50,240 nt of DNA from Candidatus Nomurabacteria bacterium (GCA_020632135.1 JACKGC010000001.1:1-50240); one strand, 5' to 3'; positions 2,381-38,968 are shown, counted from the stretch's first letter. Notes: generated by a model not told the origin, from the letters alone. Numbers and translations are program-made.

Positions 2381-5092
<2,712 letters not shown>

Positions 5093-32625: not shown

Positions 32626-32765
32626 ATGCTGCCATAATATCACAATTACCCCCGACAGTGGCCACGCAGCCCTAGATTTTTTTGCATAATTTGCTATGAT
32701 GTGGCGCACGTTTTCGCTTGTGGCGAGCACCGAGAGACTCGGGGCCGGACTCGCGAAGCGAGTCC

Positions 32766-32840
32766 GGCCCCATCGTCTAACGGCTAGGACGCCAGGTTTT
32801 CATTCTGGAAATCGGAGTTCGATTCTCCGTGGGGTCACCA
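32766..32840 (+). tRNA. tRNA-Glu (TTC), CCA encoded
   Basis: Acceptor GGCCCCA/TGGGGTC, anticodon arm CCAGG-TTTTCAT-TCTGG and GTTCGATTC. Confidence 0.95.
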
Positions 32841-34335
32841 ACGAAGATTTATCACGTTTATACTCCTCAGATAGTGAGTAAATAGGCGACAAAACAGCGG
32901 TTCCAAAACCGTTGTTTTGTGTATAAGGAATACTGCCCTCGAAAATAAAATTTTGGAACCGTAGCCTTTTTTCAGGCTGTTTTACCAATCGCTTCCAAGT
33001 ATCAGGAGTATCAATAATGAAACTTATGCAGTAATCAAGAGCGGCTTCAAAGTCTAATTCGCCACCCCGCACTTCAATCAAGTTACTTTGAGCGGCATAT
33101 AGCTGTCGTTCCACTTCTCGTTTTCGTTCTAAGAAGTCAGTCTTGGTATAGATACCCTCTTCAAAATTGTTAAAGATGGCTTTCTTTTTCTCATACAGGC
33201 TAGCGACCTGCTGTCTAACCGTCTCGTTTTGTTTTTCAGCATTGGTGTTATCTTCTCGATAAATTTCCATACACGCCTCTTTGAAAGCGTTGGCAAATTC
33301 AAAGGTAGGATTTATCTCCTCTAGAAAAGAGACAAATGATTCTTCAAGGTCTTTCTTTTTGATTGATTTAGCGTGCGGACAACCTTGTTTGTGATGATGA
33401 TAATAACCGTGCTTCTTGCCACCACGTCCAGTCGAAAAGCTACCTGTTAATGGATCATCACACCACTCGCAAGAAACCAGTCTGCGAAGTGGAAAATTAG
33501 GATTCTTTTCTTGTTTCTTTGTTCCCTTATGTGACCGTCCGGCACCTTGGCATTTATAAAATAGTGACTCAGTGACAATAGGTTCATGTTGTCCTTTGAC
33601 TTCGATGCCCCATTCATCCTTTTTCACGATACCAGCATACAGAGGGTTATGGATCATTTTTTGAATAGTTTGAAACTCAATCTTTTTGCCAGATTTTGAG
33701 CGTAGACCTTTTTCAAATAAGAGAGTGGCTAGAGTTTTGTATGTATGAGTCCCTTTCACATACTCATTGAAAGCGAGGCGGACATACTGAGCGTCGTTAT
33801 CAGGCACCATAACGCCGCCTTTTTCTAGACGTTGATAACCTGTAGGAGCCGGCCAGACCCAGATTCCTTGCTTAAGGCGTTCTCGCATACCAGTCGAGCT
33901 ACGTTCAGAGCGGATACTGTTATCAAATTCAGCTGAAGCAGACAATGTGCCCATTAAGAATTTTCCGATTGGTGATTCATCAACCGGTTCAGTAGCAGAG
34001 CGAATAGTGACACCATATTTATTAAGACTGTTTTGAACAGCGAAGTGATCGGTCTGACTACGAGAAAAGCGGTCTAATTTATATACTATGAAAAAATCAA
34101 TCTGGTTTTTCTTTTGACCACAAAATGAAATTGCTTTAAGAAACTGAGGACGATCGGCAGTTTTAGCAGATTCGCCTCGATCAACAAACACATCAGCAAC
34201 TTCTATACCTTCACGTTCGGCATATTCACGACAAATCCGCTCCTGTGATTCAAGACTAGTTCCATCCACCTGTTCGAGCGAAGACACGCGACAATAGATA
34301 ATCCCTCGCTTTCCTGTCATATCAGTATCATACAT
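32800..34335 (-). CDS. Large serine recombinase (resolvase + recombinase + Zn-ribbon domains), 511 aa
   Basis: Catalytic Ser in IYCRVSS, DRGESAKTADRPQF, VYKLDRFSR, GIWVWPAPTGY, HEPIV and CEWC...HHKQGC. The C-terminus runs into the antisense strand of tRNA-Glu. Confidence 0.95.
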   Translation of the reverse strand: MYDTDMTGKRGIIYCRVSSLEQVDGTSLESQERICREYAEREGIEVADVFVDRGESAKTADRPQFLKAISFCGQKKNQIDFFIVYKLDRFSRSQTDHFAVQNSLNKYGVTIRSATEPVDESPIGKFLMGTLSASAEFDNSIRSERSSTGMRERLKQGIWVWPAPTGYQRLEKGGVMVPDNDAQYVRLAFNEYVKGTHTYKTLATLLFEKGLRSKSGKKIEFQTIQKMIHNPLYAGIVKKDEWGIEVKGQHEPIVTESLFYKCQGAGRSHKGTKKQEKNPNFPLRRLVSCEWCDDPLTGSFSTGRGGKKHGYYHHHKQGCPHAKSIKKKDLEESFVSFLEEINPTFEFANAFKEACMEIYREDNTNAEKQNETVRQQVASLYEKKKAIFNNFEEGIYTKTDFLERKREVERQLYAAQSNLIEVRGGELDFEAALDYCISFIIDTPDTWKRLVKQPEKRLRFQNFIFEGSIPYTQNNGFGTAVLSPIYSLSEEYKRDKSSLVTPRRIELRFPE

Positions 34336-34337
34336 AG

Positions 34338-34517
34338 CTATTTTTCATCGTCCACTTCCGCTGACCCCACGGCGAATTTGGAATCACGGTCTTCTTTATA
34401 AGAATCGTATGCAAGGTGCGCCACTTCATAGATTTTTTCACGAATAAGAGCCACTTCTTCATCAGAAGCATTAGCGAGTTTAGGTTCTATTTCTCTAAGA
34501 TGCTTAAGGCTCATCAT
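34338..34517 (-). CDS. Small helical protein (59 aa) coupled to the recombinase; possible directionality factor
   Basis: MMSLKHLREIEPKLANASDEEVALIREKIYEVAHLAY. It overlaps the Rep stop and ends 2 bp before the recombinase start. The function is inferred. Confidence 0.55.
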   Translation of the reverse strand: MMSLKHLREIEPKLANASDEEVALIREKIYEVAHLAYDSYKEDRDSKFAVGSAEVDDEK

Positions 34518-35289
34518 GGTTAATCTTGTATTTGCGATAGGTGGCACGACCAAACCACTTTGTGTTGTATTCGCGTGAGACTTCAGGCTCAGAATCAACC
34601 CCTAATTCAAAGAGAATGCGATCGGCACTGAAGTTCCCCGTAAACACTTCAGGACGAATGATATTGCGAGAAGCGGTGTATGCTTTTTGATTCTTGAGAC
34701 GCGGGTCTTCATAGGCTTTGGTTAGATATTTAGCTAGGTACCCAGCCAACGCCCCTGCTCCATCTGTTCTTTTGAGATCGACAAAACCATGGCTCCAGAT
34801 TTGTGCCACGGTACGATTTTCCCTCTCCAGAAGAAAAAGTTCTTCGGGTAACCCCCAGAGGAAAGCGTGGAAATGTACGGCGCCACGTTCTTGAAATTCT
34901 GGGACGCATAGGTACTTAAAGTCATGCCCGAACTTGCGTCTGAGAGATTGCGCAAAAGCTGAGTAGTGTTTATACGCCGCACTAAGGTCGGTGAAATTGC
35001 TCCCGTAGGTAAGTGTAGCCAGTAGAGGTGGTGCAGATCCTCTCCCGAGGTTAGCTGAAACAAGCCTTCGGAAAGCCATGCTAGCGCGCCACGCGTTATC
35101 GGATCGGCGCCCCACTTTTTCTTCACTGTCCCCGGTCTGAAGTGAATCCTCTCTGCTAGTTCCCAAATTATCATTGCTAATAGCTGACGACCGCCGGCCT
35201 GCGCGTCCGTCATGGTTTCGTATAAGATCATGTTCGTATTCATTTATTTCGACATAATCGCCGTATGTAGTTACTTTGATGTATGACAT
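34504..35289 (-). CDS. Rolling-circle replication initiator (HUH endonuclease, two-tyrosine type), 261 aa
   Basis: Motif I ATLTY, motif II EFQERGAVHFH and motif III YLAKY (Y-x3-Y). Confidence 0.88.
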   Translation of the reverse strand: MSYIKVTTYGDYVEINEYEHDLIRNHDGRAGRRSSAISNDNLGTSREDSLQTGDSEEKVGRRSDNAWRASMAFRRLVSANLGRGSAPPLLATLTYGSNFTDLSAAYKHYSAFAQSLRRKFGHDFKYLCVPEFQERGAVHFHAFLWGLPEELFLLERENRTVAQIWSHGFVDLKRTDGAGALAGYLAKYLTKAYEDPRLKNQKAYTASRNIIRPEVFTGNFSADRILFELGVDSEPEVSREYNTKWFGRATYRKYKINHDEP

Positions 35290-35319
35290 TTAATTTAAGT
35301 TGTTAATTAGTTAAGTGAG

Positions 35320-35337
35320 GGATTAATCAAGTCCCCC
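35320..35337 (-). other. Candidate double-strand origin (nick site)
   Basis: The minus strand reads GGGGGACTTGATTAATCC, resembling the phiX174/pC194 CTTG^AT nick consensus, about 30 bp upstream of rep and beside GC hairpins. Confidence 0.45.
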
Positions 35338-35632
35338 TCCGGGGTCCATCCCTGCCCCGCGAAACCGCTGGTGCAGGGACTGGAACCCCGTTTTGAAGCA
35401 CAAGAAAAGCCCGCTGTTATGCGGGCACAAAAAACTCCTTAAACTATTTTAAAGCTTAAGGATTCTAGACTTCTTTTATCCTTTTTAGCTCTCAGTTAGC
35501 TTTTTTATATTTAAGCTTGCTTTAGAGCTTGTGCTTTAAAACTCTTGTTTAGCTGAAAAAGTTACGGGACAAAAGAAAAGAAGTATGTTGTAAAGAAGAA
35601 AATTATAAATCATGTTGTATTTTAAATAGGAA

Positions 35633-36250
35633 ATGAAAAAGTTGATTACAAAAGCAGATGTTCTAATGTTTGTCATTGGACTACTTCTGGGAGCCATTAT
35701 CTCAGGTATTTTTTTCGCACCTGAAAAAACACAAGTTATATTAAGTAGTTTTCAAGCTATGGCAGTAACTTTAGTAACTATTTTTACGGCTTGGTGGACA
35801 TCTAAAACGTTCGGTCATGAACTTAGATCAAGGGAAGCAAAAGAAATTCTAGGCGTGCTGCTTTCCATGAGAAATTGTGTTAACGAAATTACAAACCCCA
35901 TTGCCTCTATGCCAATTATTGGCAAAGAAGCAACTATGGATAATTTTATGGAGAAATGGGAAGAAAACAAGGAAAAGGTCAGTGAAGAGGCTTGGTATAG
36001 ATATCTGGGCCACAAAGGAGTATTAAAGGAAATAACTGAAAAGTCTGTTGCACTAAAACCATTTACACGTATGCAACTACTTATGATTGGTGACTTCAAA
36101 GATGACATGAAAAATATTAAAGAAGACAATGGCCAAAAACTGACGAAGGACATAATTGCCTTGCAAGCAAAGATTGCTAGAGAGGCACACTTTGATGTTG
36201 GCATAGAGGTTACAAGAATCAGGAACAAATTGGGTCTTTGGTTTTCTTAG
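35633..36250 (+). CDS. Hypothetical cargo protein with two N-terminal TM helices, 205 aa
   Basis: AT-rich ORF with two hydrophobic helices followed by a charged helical domain. Confidence 0.75.
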   Translation: MKKLITKADVLMFVIGLLLGAIISGIFFAPEKTQVILSSFQAMAVTLVTIFTAWWTSKTFGHELRSREAKEILGVLLSMRNCVNEITNPIASMPIIGKEATMDNFMEKWEENKEKVSEEAWYRYLGHKGVLKEITEKSVALKPFTRMQLLMIGDFKDDMKNIKEDNGQKLTKDIIALQAKIAREAHFDVGIEVTRIRNKLGLWFS

Positions 36251-36371
36251 CCGCCCTTACCCCGCCCTTCACACCGCTCACAAGCTCGCGGCGCGAAGCT
36301 CCGCAGGCGGGCGCGACTAGTGCGGGCGGCTTTAGTCAAGTGCAACTGCTGCGTCGACAAAAAATGTATAT

Positions 36372-37235
36372 ATGATAAAATCACAGGCAATGCATCAAAC
36401 AACTAACAAAAACAAGGTCGTAAGCCAACCAAAGCAAGAAAAATTGATAGGACAAGAGGAAAAGTTACCAATTAATGATTTTGTTGTTGGTAATGCAGTA
36501 GAGGTAATGAAAAGTTTCCCTGAAGGATCTATAGACCTTGTTGTGACATCACCGCCGTACGATGAATTAAGAGATTACAAGGGTTATCATTTTGATTTTG
36601 AAGGGATGGCAAAAAGCCTTTACGCAGTCATGAAAAAAGGTGGGGTTGTTATTTGGGTTGTTGGAGACAAAATTAAAAATGGTAACAAAAGCTTAACCAG
36701 CTTTAAGCAAGCACTGCTTTTTCAACAGGTCGGATTCAATGTGCATGATGTGATGATATACAAGAAAAAGAACACACCATTTATGCGATCAAACGCATAC
36801 ACAAATTGTTATGAGTTCATGTTTGTTTTCACAAAGTCATCACCAAAAACCTTTAATCCATTAAAAACAAAAACTGTAAGACAAGGTATTGAGCCACTTC
36901 CACATAACAAAGGAGCAGATGGTGTAAATAAAAAAATTAAGAAAGAGCTCAAGCCAGAAAAAACTTTAACAAATATATGGGAATATGCGGTTGGACTACA
37001 TGGATCAACCAGCGATAGAATTGCTTTTGAACACCCCGCAATCTTCCCAGAGAAACTTGCTGAAGACCATATACTCTCGTGGTCGGAAGAAGGAGATGTT
37101 GTATTTGACCCAATGTGTGGATCGGGAACAACATGTAAGATGGCTATGTTGAACAATAGAAACTACATTGGCTGTGATATTTCTGAAGAATACGTTGAAA
37201 TAGCTAAAAAACGTCTACACGAGCACAAAGACTAG
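36372..37235 (+). CDS. Beta-class amino (probably N4-cytosine) DNA methyltransferase
   Basis: Catalytic DLVVTSPPY near the N-terminus, HPAIFP, and SAM-binding FDPMCGSGTT near the C-terminus. Confidence 0.93.
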   Translation: MIKSQAMHQTTNKNKVVSQPKQEKLIGQEEKLPINDFVVGNAVEVMKSFPEGSIDLVVTSPPYDELRDYKGYHFDFEGMAKSLYAVMKKGGVVIWVVGDKIKNGNKSLTSFKQALLFQQVGFNVHDVMIYKKKNTPFMRSNAYTNCYEFMFVFTKSSPKTFNPLKTKTVRQGIEPLPHNKGADGVNKKIKKELKPEKTLTNIWEYAVGLHGSTSDRIAFEHPAIFPEKLAEDHILSWSEEGDVVFDPMCGSGTTCKMAMLNNRNYIGCDISEEYVEIAKKRLHEHKD

Positions 37236-37810
37236 CTTCCACTAATAAATCTAATTGCTCTGTTAAGGATTCCGACATCATCCTTAAATCTACCCAGACC
37301 TGTATTACAACTATCACAAACCCAACCTCTAATCTCACCATTTTTATGATCATGTTCTAAAACGACCTTACTGGTTACACCAGCAATGGTTCTTTTACCA
37401 CAAATAGGACATTCGAAAGGAACTCGGTTTGGTTTTGTTTTTTGCCACTCTTTCCAATCAGACTTATCCATCTTCTTTCCGTCTATATGTTTTCGACAGT
37501 AAGAACATGAGGGTCTCCTTACGACCCTATTATTAACACCAGTCTGATTTGGTTCAAAATCGCTTGTATTTTTAAGCTTGTGGCAAACATTGCAAATCTT
37601 CTTTGAAAACCCATCTCCTGTTTTGGTTTCATCAAATATCTCTACCGATGAACATGGGACAACAATATCCTTCCAGGCAGTAATAAAAAAGACTGTACAG
37701 CTATCGCCATCTGAACTCTTTAATAATCCGACGTCATGAACCCCTACAAACTCTCCGTTTGAAGTAGATATATCATGTTTTGCATATAAAAAATCTTCAT
37801 CACCATTCAT
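37232..37810 (-). CDS. Hpy99I-like type II restriction endonuclease (beta-beta-alpha-Me), 192 aa
   Basis: TGDGFSKKICNVCHKLK, NQT..RPSCSYCRKHIDG, CPICGKRTIAGVT, HDH and WVCDSCNTGLGRFKDD follow the Hpy99I architecture as I recall it. It is convergent with the MTase and overlaps it by 4 bp. Confidence 0.85.
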   Translation of the reverse strand: MNGDEDFLYAKHDISTSNGEFVGVHDVGLLKSSDGDSCTVFFITAWKDIVVPCSSVEIFDETKTGDGFSKKICNVCHKLKNTSDFEPNQTGVNNRVVRRPSCSYCRKHIDGKKMDKSDWKEWQKTKPNRVPFECPICGKRTIAGVTSKVVLEHDHKNGEIRGWVCDSCNTGLGRFKDDVGILNRAIRFISGS

Positions 37811-37985
37811 GTAATGATTCTACCATCTTATTAAAAATTTACTGTGTGTACTTGTTTAACAATACGGTTCCAAATCGCTCCCCGTAGGATCACACTACTT
37901 GCTTTTTGTACAAAAGCGTGCTTTTATCCTACTGGCTGAAAATCAGAGTGTTTCTGATTAGCACTTTTACAGGAGACAGTTCATT

Positions 37986-38231
37986 GTGGACAAAGCAAAT
38001 CTGCGAAACCCGCACGAGCCCGACGGCTTCAAAACCTCCAGTATTACCCGCAAAGGTGCCATCAAAGTCTGTGTGGCCGTCAAGATCGGCGACGACTCAG
38101 TCGAGGTTCGCGACACCAAGGGCGTGAACAGTCCGACACTGTCCTTCACCCATCCGGAGTGGGAGGCCTTCATCGGCGGCGTGAAGCTCGGGGAGTTCGA
38201 CCTCTCCGCCAAGGCAACCAAGGCCGCATAA
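37986..38231 (+). CDS. DUF397-family small protein, 81 aa
   Basis: FKTSS...CVAV...VEVRDTK...LSFTHPEWEAFIGGVKLGEFD matches the DUF397 pattern. Confidence 0.8.
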   Translation: MDKANLRNPHEPDGFKTSSITRKGAIKVCVAVKIGDDSVEVRDTKGVNSPTLSFTHPEWEAFIGGVKLGEFDLSAKATKAA

Positions 38232-38304
38232 CCTAGCGGTTCGTCATCCTCTCTAGTGGAGAATCTGAAATATGATTCTCCACTTTTTTGTATATAATTC
38301 AACC

Positions 38305-38850
38305 ATGAAACTTTATTTAATCCCGGCGTATCAAGAAACAATTCGTAATCAAGGATATCGTCGTATCATCACTGCAGCAGAAAAAGCTGGCTACGGGGTT
38401 GAGATTTTGAATTTACAGATTCAAAACCGGAAATTTAATGAGGTGATTGCTGAGGGAATTGAAATGATCAACCGGAGCACTAGTGAGCCAAAAGCAATTC
38501 TAGGCTTTTCAACGGGAGCGCTAATCGCTTATCAAATTGCCACTAAAATTAGGTTTGAGAAAGCCTTTTTTTGTTCCCTGTCTCCTCTGCTAGAGGATGA
38601 CATCCCTAAAACTATCACTCCATACGTTAGGTACTTTGGTAAAGAAACCGTCCTAGATCTCAAGAAACAAAAATATGGGACTTCATTAGCAAATGAAACC
38701 TTCTTTTTTACCGGCGATCATGAGGGTAGAAAGCTGATTAGCAGAACAAAAACACTGGCAGTAAAAAATGATGGGAATTTAATTGTAATTAAAGACAACG
38801 ACCACGAGCTGAACAGAGATTACACTAAAGAGATATCACTAAAGTTGTAA
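38305..38850 (+). CDS. Small alpha/beta-hydrolase-fold protein
   Basis: Nucleophile elbow GFSTG and a C-terminal DH (candidate catalytic His). Confidence 0.65.
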   Translation: MKLYLIPAYQETIRNQGYRRIITAAEKAGYGVEILNLQIQNRKFNEVIAEGIEMINRSTSEPKAILGFSTGALIAYQIATKIRFEKAFFCSLSPLLEDDIPKTITPYVRYFGKETVLDLKKQKYGTSLANETFFFTGDHEGRKLISRTKTLAVKNDGNLIVIKDNDHELNRDYTKEISLKL

Positions 38851-38968
38851 ATGGGTGTTATAACCCGGTTCCAAAACGTACTACTTAGGGTCCCATAGAT
38901 TCAAAAAGCCTGGGACACGAAGTGTCCCAGGCTTTTTGTTACATGCTGACTATTCGGGTTGTTTGTCA

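What the first reader, a model, noticed from the sequence alone, without database searches (positions are those of the whole stretch)
32800..37893. Minimal integrative rolling-circle element: serine recombinase + HUH Rep + defence cargo, no virion or conjugation genes
SEEN: in about 5 kb, rep, a small ORF and the recombinase form one coupled minus-strand unit. It has a phiX174/pC194-like nick motif upstream, a GC-rich hairpin at 36249-36331 (possible single-strand origin), a 2-TM protein and an RM pair. There is no Zot/pI ATPase, capsid, relaxase or T4SS gene. KNOWN: most tRNA-integrating elements use tyrosine integrases, and two-Tyr Reps are typical of ssDNA phages and RC plasmids. INFERENCE: an integrative RC plasmid or satellite of CPR that may spread as ssDNA through a helper phage or natural competence, and is maintained by RM addiction.
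Basis: partly seen in the sequence, partly recalled or inferred. Interest (0 to 1): 0.7.

Follow-up and report, generated by a model that had tools for sequence, protein, structure and literature searches.

The report
Small integrating rolling-circle element at tRNA-Glu
A 5.1-kb mobile element with a serine integrase, a filamentous-phage-type replication protein and a restriction-modification pair, but no virus-particle or conjugation genes, sits at the tip of a tRNA-Glu gene of an ultra-small (CPR) bacterium; the same population in wastewater also holds cells without it, and I found no published description of its family.

Summary
Window 32835-37893 is a 5,055-bp element (GC 0.41, flanks 0.51). 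It carries a large serine recombinase (LSR), a 59-aa ORF and a two-Tyr HUH Rep in one minus-strand unit. It also carries a 2-TM protein and an Hpy99I-like restriction enzyme with its methylase.

In five wastewater or activated-sludge runs a contig joins 32834 to 37890, which is the precise empty site with a 4-nt overlap TCAC. The element is therefore present or absent within one population.

Rep followed by LSR recurs in 54 of 91 related loci, almost all from CPR. In 43 of 45 loci the LSR ORF ends inside an antisense tRNA gene.

The nearest LSR-less Reps belong to tiny circular inoviruses with a Zot/pI ATPase. Neither the element, its genome, nor 127 genomes of the genus has one.

A hairpin followed by GACTTG(A/C)T lies upstream of Rep and is conserved family-wide. 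It is the probable nick site. The "GC hairpin" is a real structure with covariation, and it forms only on the Rep-sense strand.

Not shown: a circular form (no attP junction in contigs of eight runs), replication, and the transfer route.

Verdict: an integrative rolling-circle replicon derived from an inovirus, and a new variant of a known kind. Earlier notes of this scan report the same family repeatedly.

The parts
32766..32840 (+). tRNA-Glu(UUC), the integration target. Its last bases, including the encoded CCA, are supplied by the element.
   Evidence: ARAGORN and Rfam tRNA at 57 bits. Most tRNA-Glu genes of the genus end ...TCACAN without CCA. The empty-site form ends ...GGGGTCACAC.
32835..32838 (.). 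Left crossover zone, TCAC (attL: GTGGGG-TCAC-CAACGAAG).
   Evidence: The joint 32834->37890 has 4 ambiguous letters in five runs. Sequence read.
32800..34335 (-). Large serine recombinase, 511 aa. The ORF crosses attL, so its last 11 codons are antisense tRNA.
   Evidence: Pfam Resolvase + Recombinase + weak Zn ribbon; phrog_95 integrase at 1e-88; PDB relatives SPbeta SprA/YokA, TP901-1 and A118 integrases. Predicted tail after excision is 519 aa ending ..LVILRGAIWNRIVKQVHTVNF.
34338..34517 (-). 59-aa acidic two-helix protein between Rep and LSR, translationally coupled. Candidate recombination directionality factor or accessory protein; function not shown.
   Evidence: Called as 57-59 aa in L016-L020. 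It is 78-85% identical in the closest elements, whose Rep is only 62-64% identical apart from L016 at 90%. It occurs with the window's LSR subfamily even where Rep is distant, as in L110. AlphaFold gives helix 4-10 and helix 19-45, pLDDT 79. No PDB, Pfam or fold match.
34504..35289 (-). HUH rolling-circle Rep with two catalytic tyrosines (gpII/ORF2 type).
   Evidence: PF23343 at 1.9e-20 and RepSA at 40 bits; phrog_3419; invariant motifs. About 30% identical to the Rep of 1.5-1.8 kb plasmids of Geobacillus and Brevibacillus and of 'bajarodino' inoviruses.
35326..35400 (-). Probable double-strand origin: an imperfect GC hairpin (about 35400-35340) followed by GACTTGAT (35333-35326) and CTCACTTAAC, 44 nt before the Rep ATG.
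   Evidence: 'Hairpin + GACTTG(C/A)T ... CTAAC' is kept in nearly all family members, with GACTCGAT in inovirus L055. The stem sequences differ while the pairing is kept. Fold of -39 kcal/mol. Nicking was not tested.
35409..35462 (-). Two terminator-like hairpins upstream of the origin region.
   Evidence: Terminator scan. The GCCCGC..GCGGGC-TTTT hairpin is shared with L019.
35633..36250 (+). 205-aa cargo protein with two N-terminal membrane helices; function unknown.
   Evidence: ORF. No Pfam, PHROG or PADLOC hit. No homologue in any related locus.
36246..36331 (-). Conserved structured element of three stacked helices, GC 0.72, on the Rep-sense strand. Candidate lagging-strand origin or packaging signal; an RNA is the alternative.
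   Evidence: 93% identical to L017 while the rest of the element is about 75%. 25 pairs, 12 with compensatory change, 97% of cells paired against 44-50% when slid, 0/500 shuffles. G.T wobbles make it strand-specific. Found in 6 close elements only. No Rfam family.
36372..37235 (+). N4/N6 DNA methyltransferase (type II).
   Evidence: PF01555 at 2.7e-45; PADLOC MTase_II/oMTase.
37232..37810 (-). Type II restriction endonuclease of the Hpy99I family (His-Me finger), convergent with the methylase.
   Evidence: PF18275 + PF02945; PADLOC REase_II at 3e-47; PDB 3fc3 Hpy99I at 8.8e-46 over the whole length.
37866..37893 (+). Right end (attR): P arm GGTTCCAAATCGCTCCCCGTAGGA + TCAC. The P arm copies the tRNA T-arm and acceptor, with GTTC 5 bp further from the crossover than in the tRNA.
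   Evidence: Joint position, motif scan, sequence. The same +5 spacing occurs in L017 and L019 and in Tyr- and Gln-targeting members L087 and L103.
37894..38892 (+). Not part of the 5,055-bp element. A 1-kb relic or LSR-less cassette (DUF397 and a hydrolase-like gene) that ends in a second attR-like site, 38867-38892.
   Evidence: It stays in the chromosome in the empty-site form. Its site matches the far ends of the L017 and L019 elements. The same gene pair lies beside an attP-like site in L154.

Best explanation
Window 32835-37893 is a 5,055-bp integrative rolling-circle replicon, derived from a filamentous-phage (inovirus) replication module that carries no virion genes.

Integration. The LSR recombines an element site (attP) with the 3' end of tRNA-Glu(UUC). 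The crossover falls within TCAC of the acceptor stem. The element's P arm imitates the tRNA T-arm and acceptor at +5 bp spacing. The element restores the end of the tRNA and adds an encoded CCA. Because attP lies inside the 3' end of the recombinase gene, the LSR has a different C-terminal tail when integrated than when excised.

Excision. It is expected to need a directionality factor. The coupled 59-aa ORF is the candidate.

Replication. The excised circle would be nicked by Rep at GACTTG/AT next to the origin hairpin and copied by rolling circle. The displaced Rep-sense strand would fold the conserved 86-nt structure, which would prime the complementary strand or serve as a packaging signal.

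Cargo. The Hpy99I-type RM pair and the membrane protein favour retention and may defend the host.

Shown: the parts, the exact ends, presence/absence polymorphism, family-wide Rep-LSR-tRNA architecture, conserved origin-like and structured DNA, and kinship to inovirus and small-plasmid Reps.

Inferred: excision as a circle, replication, the roles of the small ORF and the structure, and the transfer route. The route could be a helper inovirus, the host's T4SS, or uptake through ComEC.
For: - Domains and motifs.
- Composition: element GC 0.406 against 0.51 in the flanks.
- Empty site: it joins 32834->37890 with TCAC overlap in runs X1-X5, from two studies, with identical flanks. The element contig is 5,111 nt and ends one k-mer beyond each junction.
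- Depth: in X5, element 9.4-10 plus empty site 3.3 is about equal to the flank at 13.3.
- Architecture: Rep followed by LSR in 54 of 91 loci. The LSR 3' end overlaps an antisense tRNA in 43 of 45 loci, covering 10 amino-acid specificities.
- Tree: a clade of 43 Reps has 40 LSR-linked members, with inovirus Reps at its base.
- Inovirus relatives: circular inoviruses L055 and L056 and the linear contig L059 (no terminal overlap found) carry Zot and a Rep 38-47% identical.
- Plasmid relatives: plasmids of 1.5-1.8 kb have a Rep of this family (~30% identical); in the four smallest records the only feature annotated under the match is a Rep or a hypothetical protein, or nothing. This suggests that such a Rep can maintain a replicon.
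- Origin architecture is conserved.
- Structured element shows covariation on the Rep-sense strand, which is also the strand carrying the nick motif.
- Cargo of relatives is variable and rich in defence genes: MTases, MvaI/BcnI, GmrSD, ThsB-TIR, SMODS, DUF2726, NERD.
Against: - No attP (circle) junction appears in the contigs of eight runs, although the equally short empty-site unitig was recovered. The one attP-type hit in JGI metagenomes belongs to an LSR-less cassette.
- Element depth does not exceed flank depth in X1, X4 and X5. The excess in X2 and X3 is better explained by a second host context: contigs leave the element at 37894 into other sequence.
- The GC structure has no unusual folding energy, is confined to one subgroup, and could be an RNA.
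- The polymorphism could reflect integration only, or loss only.
- The role of the small ORF rests on position and co-occurrence alone.
Confidence: 0.72

Rival explanations
1. Satellite of a filamentous phage. The element has no morphogenesis genes of its own. Its rolling-circle ssDNA would be packaged and exported by a helper inovirus of the same host, as RS1 and TLC are in Vibrio cholerae. The conserved structure would be the packaging signal.
For: - The closest LSR-less Reps are in 4.8-5.2 kb inoviruses with Zot, coat-like and adsorption-like genes.
- The origin architecture is shared with inovirus L055.
- L145 has Zot + Rep + LSR + tRNA-Trp, so full phages with this integration module exist.
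- The structure is specific to the strand that would be displaced.
Against: - Zot is absent from all 127 genomes of the genus, and no inovirus protein is found in the host genome.
- The structured element is not found in any inovirus contig.
- The Zot-less, LSR-linked lineage is large and old, which does not demand a helper.
Confidence: 0.22
2. Integrative mobilizable element. Rep acts as the relaxase, as rolling-circle-type MobT proteins do in Firmicutes ICEs and IMEs. The chromosomal Patescibacteria T4SS transfers the nicked strand.
For: - The host encodes a VirB4-like ATPase: P-loop_TraG at 1.7e-25.
- IMEs pairing serine recombinases with RCR-type proteins are known (PMC5704250, listed; the content is from my own knowledge).
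Against: - No coupling protein or T4SS gene lies on or next to the element.
- Rep belongs to a replication family that appears to be the only gene on some tiny plasmids.
- The same paper argues that the T4SS serves other roles.
- Nothing here links Rep to the T4SS.
Confidence: 0.15
3. Decaying, immobile remnant of an inovirus prophage that has lost its virion genes. The polymorphism reflects an old insertion segregating in the population, or deletion.
For: - No circle junction was seen.
- A decayed relic with an att-like site lies right beside it, at 37894-38892.
Against: - All six ORFs are intact.
- The empty site is exact to the base at an LSR-type site in five runs.
- The element is identical in samples of 2021 and 2025, and its right end (up to 37893-37894) also continues into different flanking sequence in X1, X2, X3 and X4 (loose ends).
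- The same Zot-less architecture is conserved in dozens of CPR lineages with intact genes and different tRNA targets.
Confidence: 0.08

Closest known systems
phiRSM1/phiRSM3-type filamentous phages of Ralstonia, and CPR-associated inoviruses of Roux et al. 2019 (PMC6813254)
   Same: A gpII-type rolling-circle Rep joined to a serine recombinase that integrates the replicon at a tRNA gene (PMC3816273 and PMC4471427, listed; details from my own knowledge). Inoviruses with serine recombinases and CPR hosts are reported. The Rep here is 38-47% identical to Reps of Zot-bearing circular contigs.
   Different: There is no pI/Zot, coat or adsorption gene. The recombinase is a large serine recombinase whose ORF spans attP, whereas phiRSM uses a small resolvase-like enzyme. 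The cargo is an RM system. Detection that relies on pI cannot find such elements.
Satellite filamentous prophages RS1 and TLC of Vibrio cholerae (own knowledge)
   Same: Integrated rolling-circle replicons with a Rep but no morphogenesis genes.
   Different: Those use the host XerCD at dif and have known helper phages. Here there is a dedicated LSR, a tRNA target, and no helper found in 127 related genomes.
pSAM2/SLP1-type actinomycete integrative and conjugative elements (PMC2440964, PMC3218068)
   Same: Small tRNA-integrating elements that excise and replicate by rolling circle with a RepSA-type initiator. Some use serine recombinases. The Rep here matches PF20199 RepSA at 40 bits.
   Different: There is no FtsK-like TraSA transfer protein and no Nudix/Pif/Spd genes. 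The RepSA match covers only about 60 of 438 profile positions. The host is CPR, not Actinobacteria.
Integrative and mobilizable elements of Firmicutes with serine recombinases and RCR-type initiator/relaxase proteins (PMC5704250)
   Same: A minimal integration module, one HUH/RCR protein and variable cargo; no transfer apparatus of their own.
   Different: The Rep family is different: gpII/ORF2-like, not Rep_trans/MobT. No oriT or coupling evidence exists. tRNA 3' ends are targeted by an LSR.
Cryptic rolling-circle plasmids of Bacillales (for example the 1,540-bp Geobacillus and 1,786-bp Brevibacillus plasmids)
   Same: The same Rep family at about 30% identity over the full length, and a CTTG-type nick word as in pC194 and phiX174.
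   Different: Those plasmids are not known to integrate (own knowledge). They have no recombinase and no cargo.

Membership tests
Large serine recombinases (phage/ICE integrases: phiC31, Bxb1, A118, TP901-1, SPbeta SprA) | N-terminal resolvase catalytic domain with the serine nucleophile | tested here: met
   PF00239 at 1.9e-31 over residues 12-158. The word CRVSSLEQ lies at the expected place. PDB hits to TP901-1, SprA and gamma-delta resolvase catalytic domains.
Large serine recombinases (phage/ICE integrases: phiC31, Bxb1, A118, TP901-1, SPbeta SprA) | C-terminal recombinase domain plus zinc-ribbon domain | tested here: met
   PF07508 at 1.2e-15. The PF13408 zinc ribbon scores only 19.7 bits, below its cut-off of 25.3. 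The alignment to the A118 integrase C-terminal domain covers residues 207-413.
Large serine recombinases (phage/ICE integrases: phiC31, Bxb1, A118, TP901-1, SPbeta SprA) | Short att sites that share only a small core, with the outer (zinc-domain) motif about 5 bp further out in attP than in attB | tested here: met
   The overlap at the junctions is 4 nt, TCAC. GTTC lies at -18..-15 in the tRNA arm and at -23..-20 in the P arm in the window, L017 and L019. The +5 spacing is also seen in L087 and L103. The right arms show no such symmetry. The rule itself comes from my own knowledge of A118 integrase structures.
Large serine recombinases (phage/ICE integrases: phiC31, Bxb1, A118, TP901-1, SPbeta SprA) | Catalyses attP x attB recombination; needs an RDF for attL x attR | not testable with these tools
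   Only the products (attL, attR) and the empty attB are seen. The 59-aa ORF is a candidate RDF with no homology support.
HUH rolling-circle initiators, gpII/ORF2 (PF23343) type | Motif I, HUH motif and a tyrosine motif (two Tyr, Y-x3-Y) | tested here: met
   T94-Y95, H139-F-H141 and Y184-L-x-K-Y188 are invariant in 28 sequences. PF23343 scores 73 bits against a cut-off of 27.8.
HUH rolling-circle initiators, gpII/ORF2 (PF23343) type | A cognate origin: a hairpin plus a conserved nick word near the gene | tested here: met
   A hairpin followed by GACTTG(C/A)T, 20-45 nt before the ATG, occurs in nearly all family members, including inovirus L055. Cleavage itself was not tested.
Inoviruses (Tubulavirales) | pI/Zot morphogenesis ATPase and a small hydrophobic major coat protein | tested here: not met
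   No Zot hit in the element, in the host genome or in 127 genomes of the genus. As a positive control, L055 and L059 score 33 and 50 bits on PF05707.
Rolling-circle plasmids | Exists as an autonomous circle with dso and sso | tested here: inconclusive
   dso-like and sso-like DNA is present. No circle junction was found in the contigs of eight runs. Raw reads were not available.
AICE (pSAM2 type) | FtsK-like TraSA DNA translocase together with int, xis and repSA | tested here: not met
   No FtsK/SpoIIIE-type gene lies in the element. The only such gene in the genome is the 735-aa chromosomal FtsK-like ORF of contig C1, far outside the window.
Integrative mobilizable elements | A relaxase and oriT used by a T4SS supplied in trans | not testable with these tools
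   The host has a VirB4-like ATPase. Nothing links Rep to it.
Type II restriction-modification (Hpy99I family) | A His-Me finger endonuclease homologous to Hpy99I, paired with a DNA methyltransferase | tested here: met
   PDB 3fc3 at 8.8e-46 over residues 5-189. PADLOC REase_II at 3e-47 and MTase_II. The genes are convergent and overlap by 4 nt. The recognition sequence was not tested.

The most novel reading that the evidence does not exclude
The element is one member of a phylum-wide system in CPR bacteria.

One clade of large serine recombinases reads the universal tRNA T-arm and acceptor as attB, and a T-arm mimic at +5 bp as attP. A few base changes would then retarget it among at least ten tRNA species.

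tRNA 3' ends would thereby become landing platforms. Autonomous Rep+LSR replicons and LSR-less cassettes stack there; an example of the latter is the DUF397/hydrolase unit beside this element.

The gpII-type Rep would double as the 'missing relaxase' of the relaxase-less Patescibacteria T4SS, or would feed ssDNA to ComEC-competent neighbours. These capsid-less inovirus derivatives would then be the main vehicle of defence-gene exchange in CPR.
Probability: 0.25. Interest if true: 0.85.

Novelty: new variant of a known kind. Interest (0 to 1): 0.6.

Why it matters
CPR/Patescibacteria make up a large share of bacterial diversity, yet their routes of gene exchange are poorly known. Their widespread T4SS lacks recognisable relaxases (PMC12102498), and few plasmids or integrative elements have been described for them.

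This element gives a concrete case that can be tested:
- Its ends are defined to the base.
- The empty site exists in the same population.
- The attP and attB sequences are predicted.
- A candidate nick site and a strand-specific structure are located.

It also shows that serine integrases can be dedicated tRNA-targeting enzymes, a role usually held by tyrosine integrases. It further shows that inovirus replication modules persist without capsids as carriers of defence systems.

The compact LSR, with a target conserved across bacteria, may interest people who build integration tools. The family is missed by pI-based inovirus searches and by relaxase-based plasmid and ICE searches.

Tried and rejected
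1. Right end at about 38890. The far-end motif of the L017 and L019 elements matches 38867-38892, so I first placed the end there. The empty-site contigs rejected this and put the end at 37890-37893. The 1-kb remainder is a separate relic or cassette.

2. Empty site in relatives. The right-flank gene is not conserved in the genus. tRNA-Glu contexts in six relatives differ, so no clean orthologous empty site was found. Metagenome contigs solved the question instead.

3. Circle junction. None was found in the contigs of eight runs. No terminal overlap occurs in any Rep+LSR contig. The attP pattern scan found one JGI contig, which lacks an LSR, and none in IMG/VR.

4. Helper phage. No Zot occurs in the genus, and inovirus proteins give no tblastn hit in the host genome.

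5. Known RNA family for the GC structure. No Rfam family matched at E up to 1. The covariance model found only the six training sequences in 1.1 Mb of related loci.

6. Small ORF. No PDB sequence or fold match was found.

7. DUF397 as a transfer from Actinobacteria. This was rejected because its homologues are in Patescibacteria.

8. RNA-seq evidence. No run could be listed.

9. First exact-peptide scan of genomes for Rep. It found nothing, whereas the alignment-based scan found 192.

10. Automated search for P arms in all loci. The output was noisy, and only L087 and L103 gave clear sites.

Full report
**What is there**

The region 32.8-37.9 kb has a GC content of 0.38-0.44, against about 0.51 on both sides. 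It holds six ORFs.

Three lie on the minus strand and are tightly coupled:
- A 261-aa Rep at 34504-35289. It matches PF23343 REP_ORF2-G2P at 1.9e-20 and PF20199 RepSA at 40 bits, and phrog_3419 "rolling circle DNA replication initiation".
- A 59-aa ORF at 34338-34517. Its start overlaps the end of Rep.
- A 511-aa large serine recombinase (LSR) at 32800-34335. It matches Resolvase at 1.9e-31, Recombinase at 1.2e-15 and a weak zinc ribbon. Its PDB relatives are SPbeta SprA/YokA and the TP901-1 and A118 integrases.

The other three are cargo:
- A 205-aa protein with two N-terminal membrane helices and no family hit.
- An N4/N6 DNA methylase (PF01555, 2.7e-45).
- A convergent His-Me finger endonuclease. 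It is a full-length homologue of the type II enzyme Hpy99I (PDB 3fc3, 8.8e-46; PADLOC REase_II at 3e-47).

None of the six resembles a Zot/pI ATPase, coat protein, relaxase or T4SS part.

The genome has 744 kb in three contigs. The related MAGs are named Saccharibacteria, Kaiser-, Taylor-, Campbell-, Zambryski-, Nomurabacteria and so on. A CPR/Patescibacteria host is therefore well supported.

**Ends and mobility**

The last 41 nt of the LSR ORF are the antisense of tRNA-Glu(UUC), 32766-32840.

I first suspected a right end near 38890. A 26-nt word there (38867-38892) matches the far ends of related elements in L017 and L019.

Laying Logan contigs of public wastewater and activated-sludge runs on the window settled the matter. 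In five runs (X1-X5; two studies, 2021 and 2025) a contig joins 32834 directly to 37890. It skips 5,055 nt, with four ambiguous letters: TCAC at 32835-32838 equals TCAC at 37890-37893.

In the same runs the element is a separate contig that ends exactly one k-mer beyond each junction. In X1 it spans 32809-37919, 5,111 nt, with no differing letters.

Depths show that the element is carried by only part of the population in four of the five runs:

| Run | Element | Empty site | Flank |
|---|---|---|---|
| X1 | 11.6 | 5.9 | 23.9 |
| X4 | 10.6-12.1 | 5.6 | 17-26 |
| X5 | 9.4-10 | 3.3 | 13.3 |

In X5 the element and the empty site add up to the flank depth; in X1 and X4 they fall somewhat short of it.

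In X2 and X3 the element is deeper than the flanks (62-73 against 52-63) even though an empty site exists (22-29). Contigs there leave the element at 37894 into other sequence. The excess is therefore more likely a second host context than a free circle.

The sites are:
- attL: GTGGGG-TCAC-CAACGAAG
- attR: CGTAGGA-TCAC-ACTACTTG
- empty attB: the tRNA end ...GGGGTCACAC without CCA, which is the usual form in this genus

The element supplies an encoded CCA.

No joint that would mark a circle (37889 back to 32839) appears in any of eight runs. Such a joint would be a unitig as short as the empty-site one, which was recovered.

**The family**

Rep has more than 180 homologues in metagenomes. Most lie on contigs of 4.2-6.6 kb. 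Three that I fetched are element-sized pieces that break at the tRNA and at the far att site. All show Rep, the 59-aa ORF and an LSR of about 511 aa, cut short by the contig end in two of them.

An alignment-based scan of one genome per species found 192 loci, of which I held 80. Counting all loci held:
- Rep is followed within 1.2 kb, on the same strand, by an LSR in 54 of 91.
- In 43 of 45 such loci with a tRNA call, the LSR ORF ends inside an antisense tRNA gene. Gln is the most frequent; the others are Glu, Tyr, Leu, Ile, Ser, Lys, Arg, Trp and Asp.

The window's LSR subfamily (E below 1e-150) targets Glu, Lys and Arg.

Modules are shuffled. L141 and L148 combine the window's LSR type with a Rep from the other major clade.

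The elements are sporadic. Rep is found in 12 of 164 genomes of the family and 9 of 401 of the phylum sample.

The 3.5 kb upstream of Rep in 43 loci is variable and rich in defence genes: N4/N6 and EcoRI-type methylases, MvaI/BcnI, GmrSD, ThsB-TIR, SMODS, NERD, DUF2726 and DUF3800. There is no virion or transfer family among the 25 most frequent. Some of those ORFs may lie outside the elements.

**Origin of the replication module**

IMG/VR holds 4.8-kb circular contigs: L055 with a 123-nt terminal overlap, and L056. Related contigs include L059. Their Rep is 38-47% identical to this one. They also encode:
- a Zot/pI ATPase (PF05707, 33 and 50 bits against a cut-off of 20.3),
- small hydrophobic coat-like proteins,
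- a large adsorption-like protein.

These are tiny inoviruses. L145 has Zot, Rep, LSR and tRNA-Trp together.

In a maximum-likelihood Rep tree, a 43-member clade has 40 LSR-linked members, with inovirus Reps at its base. Further out, at about 30% identity, are Reps of 1.5-1.8 kb plasmids of Geobacillus and Brevibacillus; in the smallest records little else is annotated, which suggests that such a Rep can maintain a replicon.

Zot is absent from the host genome and from all 127 genomes of the genus.

The Zot-less Rep+LSR form is therefore a long-lived, successful design. It is not a one-off decay product.

**Non-coding parts**

(a) Origin region. It lies 44 nt before the Rep ATG. An imperfect GC hairpin (about 35400-35340, -39 kcal/mol) is followed by GACTTGAT (35333-35326, minus strand) and CTCACTTAAC. 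In 35 of about 40 related loci the same layout recurs: a hairpin whose sequence changes while its pairing is kept, then GACTTG(C/A)T...CTAAC. Inovirus L055 has it too, with GACTCGAT. This is a strong candidate for the double-strand origin.

(b) The "GC-rich hairpin" at 36246-36331. Its folding energy is not exceptional (z -0.2 and -1.3). It is, however, 93% identical to L017 where the rest of the element is about 75%. Six copies show a three-helix structure:
- 25 pairs, 12 of them with compensatory changes;
- 97% of cells paired, against 44-50% for slid controls;
- 0 of 500 shuffles reach the observed values.

Several pairs are G.T on the minus strand, which would be A.C on the plus strand. 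The structure therefore belongs to the Rep-sense strand, the same strand that carries the nick word. That is what a lagging-strand origin or a packaging signal on the displaced strand requires. An RNA transcribed in the Rep direction is the alternative. No Rfam family matches. The covariance model finds the structure only in the closest subgroup and in no inovirus.

**How integration probably works**

- The P arm of the element (37866-37889, GGTTCCAAATCGCTCCCCGTAGGA) resembles the tRNA T-arm and acceptor (GGAGTTCGATTCTCCGTGGGG). Nine of the twelve positions next to TCAC are identical.
- GTTC lies at -23..-20 from TCAC in the P arm, and at -18..-15 in the tRNA. The same holds in L017 and L019. 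A +5 spacing also appears in Tyr- and Gln-targeting members (L087 and L103).
- A 5-bp outward shift of the outer recognition motif in attP relative to attB is the hallmark of LSR sites (my own knowledge of the A118 integrase-DNA structures).
- The right arms show no comparable symmetry.
- Because attP lies inside the gene, the LSR changes its tail. Integrated, it ends ...LVTPRRIELRFPE (511 aa). Excised, it would end ...LVILRGAIWNRIVKQVHTVNF (519 aa). Whether this matters for directionality is unknown.

**The 59-aa ORF**

- It is 78-85% identical in the closest elements, in most of which Rep is only 62-64% identical.
- It travels with the window's LSR subfamily even beside a distant Rep, as in L110.
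- It is predicted as a short helix plus a long helix with an acidic tail (pLDDT 79).
- It has no sequence or fold relative.

It is a candidate directionality factor and nothing more.

**Transfer**

Nothing in the element explains how it moves between cells. The host has ComEC (2.6e-59) and a VirB4-like ATPase (P-loop_TraG, 1.7e-25).

[quoted passage not shown] That keeps an IME-like reading open.

The inovirus kinship keeps a satellite reading open. Uptake of released DNA is the plainest option. I cannot rank these firmly.

**Comparison with what is known**

All the pieces are known kinds:
- LSR integrases;
- gpII-type Reps;
- inoviruses with serine recombinases at tRNA genes (the phiRSM group);
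- inoviruses in CPR (PMC6813254);
- tRNA-integrating rolling-circle AICEs such as pSAM2 (PMC2440964);
- Firmicutes IMEs with serine recombinases and RCR proteins (PMC5704250);
- satellite filamentous prophages (RS1, TLC).

This element fails the defining tests for an inovirus (no pI or coat) and for an AICE (no TraSA). Its membership of the plasmid class is unproven because no circle was seen.

Five full-text searches found no description of a CPR family of capsid-less Rep+LSR elements aimed at tRNA genes. The mycobacteriophage literature retrieved fits the usual rule, recalled from my own knowledge, that tyrosine integrases use tRNA genes and serine integrases do not. I did not read those papers.

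Earlier notes of this scan describe the same family many times in other genomes. They agree with my reading but are not independent evidence.

**Verdict**

New here:
- base-exact ends and a segregating empty site;
- the family-wide origin architecture;
- a strand-specific covarying structure;
- the demonstrated kinship to Zot-bearing mini-inoviruses.

Missing: the circle, replication, and the route of spread.

Noticed in passing
window 37894-38892: A 1-kb unit lies directly behind the element. It holds a DUF397 gene (37986-38231, GC 0.59 among 0.37 neighbours) and a hydrolase-like gene (38272-38850), and it ends in a second attR-like site, GGTTCCAAAACGTACTACTTAGGGTC (38867-38892). It remains in the chromosome in the empty-site form. 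The same gene pair lies beside an attP-like site without any LSR in JGI contig L154, and DUF397 homologues lie mostly on 1.0-1.4 kb contigs. It looks like an LSR-less cassette or a relic stacked at the same tRNA.
   Followed up: partly
L049 (G066) 3366-3391 and 3803-3828: The closest syntenic relative has no Rep or LSR at tRNA-Glu. It does carry two identical 26-nt copies of the family's P-arm word, 437 nt apart, downstream of the tRNA. L019 also has two such sites (1782, 2441). Tandem att-like relics seem common at these tRNA genes.
   Followed up: partly
L094 12300-12400: An LSR of the window's subfamily runs into a P-arm-like sequence (GTGACCCTACGACGTGGCTTTCCGAAC, +5 spacing) instead of a tRNA, and no tRNA is called on the locus. 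This is an attP-like state inside a 29-kb contig, and there is no internal repeat that would show a concatemer.
   Followed up: partly
L145 1-3863: One locus has Zot, Rep, LSR and tRNA-Trp in a row. It is a complete inovirus prophage using the same LSR-into-tRNA arrangement, and so links the capsid-less elements to full phages.
   Followed up: no
window 32741-32771: A perfect 14-nt inverted repeat, GGGGCCGGACTCGC-GAA-GCGAGTCCGGCCCC, abuts and partly overlaps the 5' end of tRNA-Glu. Its loop word GCGAAGCGAG recurs elsewhere in the window (for example 1910, 5566). Earlier notes on this genome describe protein-less mini-elements with such cores.
   Followed up: no
window 37893-37894 (runs X1-X4): Contigs match the element's right end up to 37893 or 37894 and then continue into sequences that are not in this genome (for example AATAGCAGAAATGCGG... 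in X2 and X3, CAAAGTAAAAACCGCTGG... in X1 and X4). The same or a sister element therefore sits in other host contexts in the same communities.
   Followed up: partly
G000 contig C1 337947-339746: The host genome encodes a 599-aa VirB4-like ATPase (P-loop_TraG at 1.7e-25, AAA_10) and a ComEC homologue at C1:253239-254039. Both are possible DNA-transfer routes for the element.
   Followed up: partly
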